64,000 nucleotides of DNA from Centroscyllium fabricii. Its lineage: Eukaryota. The notes beneath the pieces were generated by a model that saw nothing but the letters and a program-made list of their open reading frames with translations, ran no database searches and was not told the DNA's origin. Below, piece by piece: positions 10,011 to 14,400 of this stretch (position 1 is its first letter; each line of letters starts with the position of its first letter). A program made the position numbers and the translations under genes. Location: positions 160,456,001 through 160,520,000 of the forward strand of contig JBNRSN020000005.1 of NCBI GenBank assembly GCA_051313645.2, written 5' to 3'.

Positions 10011-11401
10011 CAAGATTTAAATTGGCAGTTCCCTTGTAAATCGTGACTCTGACCAGATCTGTTCAAAACGTGAGCAGCAACAGGTACGTGAACAAGGTGC
10101 AATAATTTAGATAATTGACGATTATAATTGATTTGCTCGATAACTTTCAGTTTAGCAAACCCGAATTGTCTCTGACACGACCTCCAATAAGAAGCGAAAA
10201 GGGAAACAGTCACAGCCGTATTTATCAATAATGTTGATTGGGCCCAATAAGCTTTTTAACTACTTCACACAGATTAGATTCACCAGCGAGTTGACTCCAG
10301 CATTTGTTAGACAAAGAGGCCCTCGTCAAGTACTACATGGTTGCACTGTTGTTAACCATTCTGAGCAAGACTTATGCCGGGATGATAGGTAAATTGCATG
10401 ATTGATATCCCTAAAAGCACCTACAACTTTTTTCTCCCTCTTGCAAAATATTTAGACTTCGCCTGTCGTGAACTTGGAAGGTAGTGAGTGCAACGCAATA
10501 AACTCTTCTTGCTTTCAGTCTGCACGCTGCTTTCTGACACAGCGACAAACAGCAGCCACATGGGCGAGAGGAGACGCCTACAGGTGCAACACGAGGAACG
10601 CAGCAACTCGATTCCTTTTTGTGTGCAGAAGGCGTGCAACAACACTGGACAACAAATCACTTTCATTTCACTGTCTTTAACATTTAAAAAAATCATAAGC
10701 TTCTGCAACAACAAATCATAAGCTTCTGCAGCAACATTAAGGCTGCAGAAACAATGAGTCGATTTTATTGTGGGAGCAGCAGTAATTCATACATAATGTG
10801 TGTGTGTATATATATATATATGCATTTCCCATGTGTATTTGTCGAAGCCTCTTTTTAAAAGTCCCCCCGCACTCCCAACCACCACACTTTTGTTTGGTGT
10901 GTTCACGCTTAAATCCCCCATCTGTGGCACAATTTTTATGTCTGTTGCCATTCCAATAAACCAACTTTTTTCTCTCTCAAAAAGACTGGCCTGGAAAAAA
11001 AAGTGGGCGTTGAATGTGCCCCTGTCCAAGCCCACTAATGAATATTAATGAACGCAGACGTCTGTCTCTCCTTGTCTAGATGAAGCAGTCACTATCAGTA
11101 GACGGGTGTTTTTTTTGTATGAGTGTGTGGGGGGGGGAGGTTTGTTGTGTGATCGAGGAGATTTTTTTTGGGGTGGGGGGAGGGAGGAGGGGGAGACGAG
11201 TCGCTCTTGGAAAATAAAAGGAGAATAATAAAAAAAGAGGAGGCTTTTTTTTTTGCATTGATGATTAGCTTTCTTTTCAAAATTTTTTTTTTTATATAGC
11301 GAGTGTCTTCTCCAGTCGTGCATGCGAGAATCGGTGGACTATATTGCTGTGCGGCGGCCCGCTCCACCCTCAGTTCATCCAAATACAGGCAAGGCGAAGC
11401 C

Positions 11402-11467
11402 ATGGGCATGGTTTGTAGAAGGATTTCACTCTTTGCTGCTCTCTGGCTTACCGTCTTGCGGACCCAG
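11402..11467 (+). CDS. jag1: jag1 exon 1 (signal peptide)
   Basis: gccATGG Kozak context; [22 protein letters not shown]; donor CAG|gtagg. Confidence 0.88.
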
Positions 11468-14400
11468 GTAGGTTTTGTGCGGATCATTCGCCTGTGGTAA
11501 TTTTAAAAATAAATCACAGTAACTTTATTTTAAAAAACACACTTTGTTGCAAATCGCAAACTTGTGCAGTTGTAATAATTTGCTCCTTATTTAAGATTTC
11601 TCTCTCTATTTTTGCAATGGTTTAACTGTTAGATTGAGAATTTATTTATATTTGTGTATGTGTTTCCAATTGCATTTTCTTATATTGTTTTTTCTTTCCA
11701 CCACCACCAGCTATCCCTGGCATCGGGGCAGTTCGAGTTGCAGATAAACTTTATGCAGAACATTAACGGGGAGTTGCAGAATGGAAATTGTTGTGAAGGG
11801 AGCAGCAGGAATCCCCAGGACCGCAAGTGTGTGCGGGCCCAGTGCGACACCTTCTTCAAAGTCTGCCTGAAGGAGTATCAGTCCCGCGTCTCCCCCGGCG
11901 GACCCTGCAGCTTCGGCTTCTCCTCCACCCCGGTCATCGGAGGCAATACCTTTAACCTGAGAGGCGGCGGCGGCGGCAGTGAGCGCAGGATCGTGCTGCC
12001 CTTCAACTTCGCGTGGCCGGTGAGTCCCGGGGACCGGCGGCCCGAGCACCCGAGGCATTGGGAGCCCGAGGCAGAGGCATTGGGAGCTGGAGCACCAGGG
12101 GCAGGGGGCTCGAGCACCCGAGGCTGGGAGCCCGAGGCAGAGGCATTGGGAGCCCGAGCACCAGGGGCAGGGGGCCCGAGGCAGAGGCATTGGGGGCTCG
12201 AGCACCAGGGGCAGGGGGCCCGCCCTAGGCATTGGGAGCCCTCTCCCCGGCTGACTTTCTCTGCTCCCCTTGGTGCCGCCTCGCGTTTAAATTGCACATT
12301 TTAAAGCACCTTTTACACTGGTGTTAAAGCACCTTTTAACCCGTTTTTTTAAGGCCGTTTCTAACGTGTTAAAGCACTTTTTACACGTGTTTTGTTAAAG
12401 CCGTTTTGACGCCTAATTTTACCGTTTCTACACTTGTTTTCAAACACGTTTGACACTTGTTTGCAAGCAAGTTTTTTTTTTACACTTGCTTAAAACATAA
12501 CAGCTGTGTGTGTGTGTGTTTTATTGGCGACATTTATCCGTCATGACTGGTGGAGCCGCCGACTGCAAAGCAAAAACTAGATGCATTTGTATTTCTTTTT
12601 AGGGGACTGTTGTGCATTTGTCGCTCTTTTGGTGCATTCTCTATCACTGTTCAGTTTATTTTTTTGGTGGTGGGAGATAGAGGGAGGAGCAGAATGTCTT
12701 GCAAAGTGAGTCTGTCCATTGCCATCTTAACCTGCAAACCCTTTCCCGCTGAGCCGATGTGGAATTTCGATGTATGGTGTGGCTGCAAAATGCAACGCAC
12801 CCAAAGCTTTTTCACCTCTGGACCCAGCACTTTGGATTTTAATTTTTTTTTCAAGCTTCTCCGTTTAATGTGTTTGGTCGTGGGTGTGTGTGTTTCGAGT
12901 AATTGGGATGGACTAAAGCGAGGGGCCCCAATGTGTCATTTAAAAGAAAAGTTTGTTTAGACTTGAATTGTAGATCATCATATCTACCACAGTTTAAAAA
13001 AAGTAGGTGTCTGTTATTACACCATATTTGATTCCTCCAATCTAATTTCAGTCAAAGGAATTAAAAGTATTCCTATCACTGAAACCTGAAAAAAGAAAGG
13101 CCAAGTAAATTTGCTTTTTGATCTTTTATAGTAAGAAATTGTTGAGTCAGATTCCATCAGGCTGTGTCAATGGAAGTTTCTGAAAGCTGTTGGTTCAATA
13201 GGTTTACAGTAGTAATGCTGCGGATGTATATAAAGTATGCATGTAGCACGAAATTTGGTGGAGTTCCACTTTTAAATCTAACGGTTAGGGGTTTGATTTG
13301 TGTTTTAAAAAATAAATCCGAATTCAGCTCTTGTGAATATAAGTACTCATTGTATGTTCTGATACACATGAATACTAATGTGCAGTTCCCAATGACACAA
13401 ATTGAGAGCACATAGATGCTAATCTTACATTGTGTCTGATGTAGTCTTTCTATTTCCATTTAGTGTAATCAAAGTTATCTTTCATTTTGTTTTTGAAAGG
13501 TTTTAAATGAACAAAAGATTGATGGGCAGATGAGTGGTACAAAGTTGTTACAATTGATGCGAGCCTACACATTCTAATTTACTGGCTATTTTGCATTGTG
13601 CTGTATATTAGTCTGAATTTGTACTTCCTGGAAATGCAAGTTTGTGGGAAAATGTGAAATTGAACAGTTTGCAGCACTGTGCAGGTCCCCCCCCCCCCCC
13701 CCCCCCCCCCATCAGAGGAAAGTTCTTGCCATGTCCCTAGTGTTAAATGAAAGGATGTCCCACTGAAGCATACAATACTACAAAAAGTGGCAATTTCCTT
13801 CAATGGGTCTGTTACTGTGACTGACAGTTGAGTTGCAGCTTGTAAAGGAGAGGATTATCTTGATTATGTGCGGGCCCCTGATAAAAGAAAAGATAAAATG
13901 AAATATTTGCGATTGATAAGTCAGTTCAAAGAGTTTCTCACAAGAGTTATATGTTGGCTTCTTGGCTTATCGAGCACCTGGTATGCTTTACTAGTACTGT
14001 ATTAGTCAAGTAAGCAGTCATTGAAGTATTAGTGAATGGCCTTTATGTGAATATGCAGTGTGGAGAGGGAGACGAAAGTATTGTCTGTAAAGTTGTGCAG
14101 TGATGCATAGTGCAGCCCTGTCCGAATGTCGTGTTTAACTGCATACCCTGCACTTGGACCTCCATAATAATCAGAGTACTGGTCTTTCATTCTGTTGCTA
14201 TTGGGGTTTTTTAGTTCCTTGTTATGGGTTTAGTATTATAGATGACCTGATACAAAGGAGCACATTCCTTGTAATTGGGGGTATATGGTTCAAAAAGCTG
14301 CGTTGCCTTGACTACAACTATTGACACTTCCTTTCTTTCCTCTTTGTGTTGAAAGGTGAGCTCTAATTGGACATTGTCATCTTGCATGCTTGCTTATTCA

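What the first reader, a model, noticed from the sequence alone, without database searches (positions are those of the whole stretch)
11311..11747. Out-of-frame upstream ORF overlapping the jag1 start codon, apparently conserved from shark to human
Seen: an ATG at 11322, 80 nt upstream of the main ATG, opens a stop-free frame ([30 protein letters not shown]...). It runs across the jag1 start and, after splicing into exon 2, stops at TAA 11745-11747, about 60 codons in total. From memory (unverified), the human JAG1 5'UTR has TCCAGTCGTGCATGCTCCAATCGGCGGAGTATATT, against TCCAGTCGTGCATGCGAGAATCGGTGGACTATATT here. That would give a uORF starting MLQSAEYI in the same frame relative to the main ATG. 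Inference: an overlapping uORF kept across jawed vertebrates could be a translational dosage control on a haploinsufficient gene (Alagille syndrome), possibly with peptide-level constraint (MxxS[AV][DE]YI).
Basis: partly seen in the sequence, partly recalled or inferred. Interest (0 to 1): 0.7.

Follow-up and report, generated by a model that had tools for sequence, protein, structure and literature searches.

The report
Ancient upstream start codon of Jagged1
A shark Jagged1 gene carries, 80 bases before its start, the same weak upstream start codon that human JAG1 has and that likely dampens how much Jagged1 protein is made; the start site appears shared by sharks, bony fish and mammals, but its reading frame and peptide are not fixed.

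Summary
Confirmed: AUG 11322 lies 80 nt before the shark jag1 start and opens a 60-codon out-of-frame ORF ending at 11747 after splicing. It is in the mRNA: two spliced retrocopies and spliced contigs of 7 of 7 laid runs include it. Its start block matches human JAG1 at 30 of 35 nt. The human ORF is known: Ribo-seq ORF c20riboseqorf20, 134 nt upstream, same phase, labelled 'primatomorpha - young'; antisense masking raised JAG1 protein (PMC12446204). Not found in print: the start site reaches back to the shark-human split, with traces in teleost gene models. Best reading: a leaky upstream AUG that trims JAG1 dose (0.6). Lead: the Alagille variant c.-100C>T may add a stronger start to this ORF. 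The scan's index held nothing on this DNA.

The parts
11107..11401 (+). 5' leader of jag1 mRNA (minimum extent)
   Evidence: Retrocopy L002 matches from 11107; spliced contig of run X12 starts at 11092
11311..11345 (+). Core block around the upstream AUG (-11 to +24), 30 of 35 nt identical to human JAG1
   Evidence: Window against Fig. S3 of PMC12446204; chance estimate
11308..11377 (+). 70-nt stretch with no listed change in the 7 runs laid; 3 changes in the neutral retrocopy L002
11322..11324 (+). Upstream AUG in weak context (T at -3, C at +4)
11322..11467 (+). Overlapping upstream ORF, exon 1 part (48 codons plus 2 nt)
11711..11747 (+). Overlapping upstream ORF, exon 2 part, stop TAA 11745-11747
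   Evidence: splice shown
11402..11467 (+). jag1 coding exon 1 (signal peptide); main AUG 11402 in strong context (G at -3, G at +4), second in-frame AUG 11408
11468..11710 (+). Intron 1 (243 nt, GT..AG)
11711..12019 (+). jag1 exon 2 (N-terminal Notch-ligand domain, PF07657 in the hits)
11261..11299 (+). Short upstream ORF (12 codons) ending 22 nt before the conserved AUG; its AUG is kept in relatives, its frame shifts with an A/T run
   Evidence: loose ends of X12, X13, X18
11119..11217 (+). Further upstream ORF (32 codons) near the 5' end of the leader; conservation not shown

Best explanation
The shark jag1 mRNA carries a weak-context AUG 80 nt before its main start, orthologous to the human JAG1 upstream AUG, which likely catches a fraction of scanning ribosomes and so likely trims the dose of Jagged1 protein. 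Shown: the AUG, its weak context, the overlap and its presence in spliced mRNA. From print, human only: the ORF is translated and masking its start raises JAG1. Inferred: ribosomes that start here run past the main AUG out of frame and cannot make JAG1, while most leak through to the strong main AUG. The conserved unit is a block of about 35 nt around the AUG, not the peptide, the stop or the exact frame. Where indels have put the AUG in frame (ground sharks, electric eels) it would give a precursor with 25-27 extra residues before the signal peptide, so the brake would be lost or changed there.
For: AUG inside spliced mRNA. 30 of 35 nt identical to human, including 11 nt before the AUG and the weak -3/+4 bases. 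Human ORF catalogued as translated (3 of 4 further ORF callers non-zero). ASO over the human AUG: protein +22% and +44% in HEK293 with mRNA unchanged for ATXL100, up to 2-fold in mouse liver. Selection on the block: 0 of 70 changes against 34 of 313 in exon 2 in run X12, Fisher p 0.0016, 0.02-0.03 after allowing for choice of window; the retrocopy has 3 of 70. In-frame starts are rare: 7 of 275 jagged-1 proteins with the exon-2 motif (5 species), against 217 with the ordinary start. The AUG or its neighbouring frames are visible in teleost models of both jag1a and jag1b.
Against: No translation or reporter data for any shark. At least four lineages tolerate an in-frame AUG, so overlap is dispensable there. 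The block is frozen at synonymous sites, which initiation alone does not explain. The ASO covers the whole block and would also hide a protein-binding site; a second ASO to the uORF region (ATXL101) did nothing; no AUG mutant appears in the sections and outline I saw; the same approach failed replication for RNASEH1 (PMC11697566 abstract). Two more weak AUGs lie upstream in this shark and could change how many ribosomes reach 11322. An ordinary annotated start does not show that a species still has the AUG.
Confidence: 0.6

Rival explanations
1. The block is a binding site on RNA or DNA (for example the UGCAUG hexamer recalled as the RBFOX motif, or a transcription-factor site in the transcribed promoter region) and the AUG is a passenger letter of that site; its translation is tolerated noise.
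For: Conservation straddles the AUG and covers non-coding and synonymous positions. Frame and stop vary. Hyperconserved leaders have proved to be promoter elements elsewhere (PMC9456764 abstract).
Against: The block lies over 200 nt inside the transcript in shark and 335 nt in human. It falls outside the candidate enhancer peaks listed for JAG1 (with the hg19 coordinate). In-frame, harmless versions are rare rather than common. The hexamer occurs 31 times on the + strand of the window. No stable fold (z +0.5 to +1.9 for three of four stretches, -0.8 for the fourth) and no Rfam match.
Confidence: 0.22
2. The nascent peptide (motif M-x-x-S-x-[DE]-Y-I) acts in cis on the ribosome or in trans, as in conserved-peptide uORFs.
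For: S4, Y7, I8 and an acidic residue 6 are shared by shark, human and bonefish; the first ten residues are identical in this shark, Mustelus and Scyliorhinus. The human ORF is in the high-PepScore sheet of PMC10908861.
Against: Shark against human: 4 of 8 codons differ and all 4 change the residue, none differs only silently. In codons 19-26 among relatives 1 of 6 changed sites is silent. Only Met is invariant in six N-termini. PhyloCSF -16.71 and 0 mass-spectrometry studies for the human ORF. No protein relative found.
Confidence: 0.07
3. A short upstream ORF plus this overlapping ORF form an ATF4-like delayed re-initiation switch that raises JAG1 translation when eIF2alpha is phosphorylated.
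For: Human JAG1 has a translated 4-codon uORF upstream, also translated in rodents; the shark has a 12-codon uORF. The overlapping ORF is 58-60 codons.
Against: Spacing differs widely (about 201 nt in human coordinates, 22 nt in shark); the short ORFs are not shown to be homologous; the shark one shifts frame with an A/T run. A four-term paper search gave 1 listing, on another topic. ATF4 details are recalled; the source paper was not held.
Confidence: 0.08
4. The similarity is a neutral relic of slow shark evolution and a CpG-rich, slowly mutating leader.
For: Only two deep lineages are seen as DNA; the seven laid runs are near relatives (80% or more alike by design).
Against: 30 of 35 identity to mammals while the rest of the leader differs in length by 54 nt; the neutral retrocopy does mutate in the block; the jag2-like paralogue shares nothing.
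Confidence: 0.03

Closest known systems
Human JAG1 uoORF c20riboseqorf20 (GENCODE Ribo-seq ORF; PMC10032668 supplement row; ASO target in PMC12446204)
   Same: Orthologous gene, homologous start block, weak context, same phase relative to the main AUG, overlap with the coding start, 58 against 60 codons
   Different: 134 against 80 nt upstream; stop in exon 1 against exon 2; peptides unrelated after about codon 10; catalogued as 'primatomorpha - young' on protein similarity although its start site is shared with sharks
STN1 overlapping ORF (PMC6089452, abstract seen)
   Same: An upstream overlapping ORF lowering the dose of a dose-sensitive gene in distant species
   Different: STN1 was tested by AUG mutation (10-fold in yeast) and acts partly through NMD; the abstract describes a shared mechanism, whereas here the start-site sequence itself is alignable from shark to human
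Conserved-peptide uORFs (CPuORFs; PMC7530721, search listing only)
   Same: Upstream ORF with recognisable N-terminal residues across distant species
   Different: No excess of silent change, no conserved stop, frame can fuse with the main ORF
ATF4 uORF1/uORF2 switch (recalled)
   Same: A short uORF followed by a roughly 60-codon ORF that overlaps the coding start
   Different: Spacing is not conserved and no stress induction is shown

Membership tests
Upstream overlapping ORF (uoORF/oORF) | AUG inside the transcribed 5' leader | tested here: met
   Retrocopies from 11107 and 11288; spliced contigs of 7 of 7 laid runs cover 11322. Contigs cannot exclude additional shorter transcripts.
Upstream overlapping ORF (uoORF/oORF) | Out of frame with the main ORF, stop downstream of the main AUG | tested here: met
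   80 mod 3 = 2; stop 11745-11747
Upstream overlapping ORF (uoORF/oORF) | Translated, and represses the main ORF | not testable with these tools
   No shark Ribo-seq; human evidence from print only
Orthologue of human JAG1 uoORF c20riboseqorf20 | Orthologous host gene and homologous start site | tested here: met
   30 of 35 nt
Orthologue of human JAG1 uoORF c20riboseqorf20 | Same phase relative to the main AUG | tested here: met
   80 and 134 nt, both 2 mod 3; not true of all vertebrates
Orthologue of human JAG1 uoORF c20riboseqorf20 | Homologous stop codon | tested here: not met
   Human stop in exon 1; shark stop in exon 2
Conserved-peptide uORF (CPuORF) | Amino-acid conservation with an excess of synonymous change | tested here: not met
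   small numbers of changes, no formal dN/dS over many species
Conserved-peptide uORF (CPuORF) | Separate ORF kept intact across lineages | tested here: not met
   Fused in frame with JAG1 in Mustelus, Scyliorhinus, Electrophorus models
ATF4-type delayed re-initiation switch | Short uORF1 at a re-initiation-permissive distance before the overlapping ORF | tested here: inconclusive
   Short ORFs exist in both species but at 22 and about 201 nt
ATF4-type delayed re-initiation switch | Main ORF translation rises with eIF2alpha phosphorylation | not testable with these tools
   one search found nothing on point
Structured cis-regulatory RNA element | Stable conserved fold or Rfam family | tested here: not met

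The most novel reading that the evidence does not exclude
JAG1 dose has been set since the last common ancestor of jawed vertebrates by a short start-site module whose AUG flips by single indels between a repressive overlapping ORF and an N-terminal extension, independently in at least four lineages; and the Alagille variant c.-100C>T causes disease by adding a second, better-context AUG to this same ancient ORF, so that too much initiation here gives haploinsufficiency and too little is the therapeutic lever.
Probability: 0.3. Interest if true: 0.7.

Novelty: new member of a known kind. Interest (0 to 1): 0.48.

Why it matters
JAG1 is haploinsufficient and its upstream AUG is already an antisense target. 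Showing that the start site, filed as a young primate ORF, is shared with sharks and apparently teleosts argues that it is a selected control element and tells which bases matter: the AUG and its flanks, not the peptide. Species in which the AUG has slipped in frame (catshark, smoothhound, electric eel) are natural experiments for what the overlap does. The position of c.-100C>T in the ORF gives a testable mechanism for a pathogenic variant whose paper left the mechanism open. As a kind of element, an overlapping uORF on a dosage-sensitive gene is ordinary.

Tried and rejected
No run listed by the look-up of sequencing runs is on record as RNA ('no RNA holder listed'); I laid 7 of the 24 listed runs, one per organism code A-G (X12 twice), all contigs, which cannot show a start site or a level. 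The lay tables omit differences near piece ends: the A of the AUG is 30 letters from the piece end for X13, X14 and X18, and for X14 5 of 10 differences are unlisted; two put-in letters of X9 are unplaced, so 'no indel between the two AUGs' is shown for 6 of 7 runs; differences in 11433-11463 are unlisted for several runs, so a shared stop in exon 2 is not shown for them. Protein search with the uORF of retrocopy L002: no candidate. Metagenome scans: 0 matches to the motif, 1 unrelated locus. Search with the bonefish N-terminus among shorter proteins: 2 exon-2 fragments only. RNA folding and Rfam: nothing. Bacterial promoter scan: not applicable, 0 sites. Homology of the leader to the jag2-like and dll1-like paralogues: a resemblance seen by eye was not significant (p 0.25-0.97). 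Supplements of PMC7889888: 0 hits for JAG1. Third base of human codon 12: not found in PMC7862053's supplement. Not readable: supplement of PMC7530721 (too large), so JAG1 may be in that CPuORF list; Fig. 1A and Table S1 of PMC12446204 (pictures); four papers asked for by id were not held, among them vertebrate uORF-conservation and hyperconserved-leader lists that may hold JAG1. A notebook figure of about 93 nt for the human uORF spacer was wrong and is corrected to about 201 nt (entry 6). Rejected: equal ORF length as evidence of constraint (stops are unrelated).
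Full report
Observation. The window holds an ATG at 11322, 80 nt before the main ATG at 11402. After removal of the 243-nt intron 11468-11710 its frame runs 60 codons and stops at TAA 11745-11747 in exon 2. Its context is weak (T at -3, C at +4); the main AUG has G at -3 and G at +4. 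The gene is jag1 of a shark: exon 2 matches Jagged-1 structures at 160.9 bits against 105.4 for Jagged-2, the best of 118 hits is shark jagged-1b at 95%, and the gene ends in MEYIV-stop at 60559.

Is the AUG in the mRNA? The own genome holds two processed copies of jag1 with exons 1 and 2 joined. One, L002, matches the window from 11107, 215 nt before the AUG; the other from 11288. I laid 7 of 24 listed public runs, one for each of seven organism codes and seven studies. All 7 have a contig that skips the 243-nt intron and covers 11322, starting between 11092 and 11304 or running past the laid stretch. Their kind is only guessed as RNA and contigs do not show start sites, so shorter transcripts are not excluded, but the refutation 'start site downstream of 11322' fails as a general statement.

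Human orthologue. Fig. S3 of PMC12446204 (supplement text) prints 60 nt of the human, monkey, rat and mouse leaders. By eye, 30 of 35 positions from -11 to +24 are identical to the shark without gaps (chance 1e-8 to 2e-6 over all offsets). The human ORF is GENCODE Ribo-seq ORF c20riboseqorf20, 58 codons, labelled 'primatomorpha - young', PhyloCSF -16.71, 0 MS studies (supplement row of PMC10032668; that label rests on protein similarity and on ORF structure within primatomorpha, passages). It starts at nt 336 with the CDS at 470, so 134 nt upstream and in the same phase as the shark's 80 (supplement row of PMC10908861). It ends in exon 1, so the stop is not homologous. In PMC12446204 (abstract, passages, sections 7 and 9, supplement 1 seen) ASOs over this AUG raised JAG1 protein by about 22% and 44% in HEK293 cells, with mRNA unchanged for ATXL100, and up to 2-fold in mouse liver; a second uORF-region ASO had no effect; I saw no AUG mutant. 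The same method did not replicate for RNASEH1 (PMC11697566, abstract). The human side is therefore known, with functional support that is suggestive and not decisive.

What is constrained. Among the laid runs no difference is listed in 11308-11377. For the most divergent fully listed run (X12) that is 0 of 70 against 34 of 313 in exon 2 (Fisher p 0.0016; 0.02-0.03 allowing for the choice of window). The retrocopy L002, free of selection, has 3 of 70, which speaks against a mutation cold spot. The frozen stretch includes 13 four-fold sites in codons 2-18, whereas in codons 19-26 only 1 of 6 changed sites is silent. Between shark and human 4 of the first 8 codons differ and all 4 change the residue, while 11 nt before the AUG are identical. 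This is nucleotide constraint, not peptide constraint. No fold stands out and Rfam has no match. The jag2-like paralogue has no AUG in 400 nt upstream and no leader similarity (its naming as jag2 rests on recalled residues, its best PDB match is also Jagged-1).

Is the frame kept? There is no indel between the two AUGs in 6 of 7 runs; one is unresolved. Annotated proteins give a wider view. Of 15 listed members (14 species) of a 34-member elasmobranch cluster, two start at this AUG in frame with JAG1: Mustelus asterias (27 extra residues) and Scyliorhinus canicula (25), both beginning MRESVDYIAV. Comparison with the three frames of the window places the Mustelus shift soon after codon 10 and the Scyliorhinus shift next to the main AUG, which I read as two separate indels. 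Among 337 proteins held, 275 carry the exon-2 motif, 217 start at the ordinary Met, 26 are extended or odd, and the other 32 (fragments or short starts) were not classed. Seven proteins of five species start in frame at the AUG: the two sharks, Electrophorus electricus and E. voltai jag1a (MCGSGQYMRA, preceded by S-C as in the shark frame) and, on a weaker match, Pempheris jag1b (MLRPERSSGAV). A bonefish model begins MFKSEEYIRA and jumps to exon 2 (human MLQSAEYIRA). Models that read through the leader in neighbouring frames imply distances of 82, 79 and 82 nt (phase 1; Menidia, Entelurus, Lates) and 83 nt (phase 2; Spinachia). All teleost statements are inferred from predicted peptides; I saw no teleost DNA, the AUG itself is only implied in the read-through models, assembly indels are possible, and such models are a biased sample. 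An ordinary start does not show that the AUG is present. The fair reading is that the start block is old and widespread, usually out of frame, and sometimes in frame.

Mechanism. Most likely (0.6) leaky scanning: a share of ribosomes start at the weak AUG, run past the main AUG out of frame and are lost to JAG1; the rest use the strong main AUG. This follows from established behaviour of overlapping uORFs (STN1 example, PMC6089452 abstract) and from the human data; it is untested in sharks. It does not explain why bases 3' of the AUG are frozen, nor why four lineages tolerate fusion; a binding site that happens to contain the AUG is the main rival (0.22; compare PMC9456764 abstract). A peptide effect (0.07) and an ATF4-like stress switch (0.08) are weaker.

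A human lead. The pathogenic variant c.-100C>T cut reporter output by 70-80%, mainly at protein level, with the mechanism left open (PMC9546130, whole text). Its position, chr20:10,673,630 (PMC7862053 passages), is the middle base of codon 12 (Thr) of the upstream ORF. C to T there gives an AUG if the third base is G, which I recall but saw in no call; the preceding Gly codon would give G at -3, a better context than the native AUG. If so, the variant adds a stronger start to the same overlapping ORF. A search for JAG1 with 'c.-100C' listed only PMC9546130. This is inference.

Novelty. Searches for JAG1 with uORF (11 papers, 9 listed), jagged with 'upstream open reading' (26 listed), JAG1 with uAUG/oORF terms (30 of 181 listed) and jag1 with shark, zebrafish and conservation terms (20 of 46 listed) showed no title or abstract on conservation of this AUG beyond mammals; I judged most from listings only, and several supplements that may list JAG1 were unreadable or not held. 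General surveys report that uORF start codons are better conserved than their peptides (PMC7889888 passages), which fits. The scan's own index held no finding on this DNA. Verdict: a real, old orthologue of a known human element; new member of a known kind; interest 0.48.

Noticed in passing
L002:1320-1984 (G000 C678): Processed jag1 copy of exons 1-2 only, from window 11107 to exactly the end of exon 2, followed by an A-rich run, with the same repeat family on both sides; coding frame has a stop, the upstream ORF is still open for 60 codons. It may derive from a splicing intermediate.
   Followed up: partly
L003 / L007 (G000 C933): Second, younger processed jag1 copy covering at least exons 1-5, interrupted by short repeat insertions, one between the two AUGs.
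   Followed up: partly
window 11261-11299: 12-codon uORF ending 22 nt before the conserved AUG; AUG kept in runs X12, X13, X18 and in L002; X12 keeps the same stop with a 3-nt loss, L002 does not.
   Followed up: partly
human chr20:10,673,630 (from print): Alagille variant c.-100C>T falls on the middle base of codon 12 (Thr) of the upstream ORF and may create a stronger in-frame AUG; third base recalled, not seen.
   Followed up: partly
P0125, P0126, P0070, P0045, P0028: Public jagged-1 models that start at the upstream AUG: true in-frame fusions or annotation errors; the bonefish model P0028 skips the signal peptide and looks mis-spliced.
   Followed up: partly
L008:1498-1795 (G000 C2): jag2-like exon 2 appears to change frame near its 3' end, in a G/A run; assembly error or a broken copy.
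   Followed up: no
L010 (G000 C1044) and L012 (G000 C2): Delta-like genes lie on the same contigs as jag1 and the jag2-like gene; the dll1-like gene has an in-frame ATG 12 nt before its likely start.
   Followed up: no
window 12040-12240: GC-rich degenerate tandem repeats just after the exon 2 donor.
   Followed up: no
window 29952-30151: Run of 200 N in the intron after exon 3.
   Followed up: no
human chr20:10673596-10673610 (from print): A 15-bp duplication inside the human upstream ORF, frame-preserving, is classed likely benign in ClinVar.
   Followed up: no
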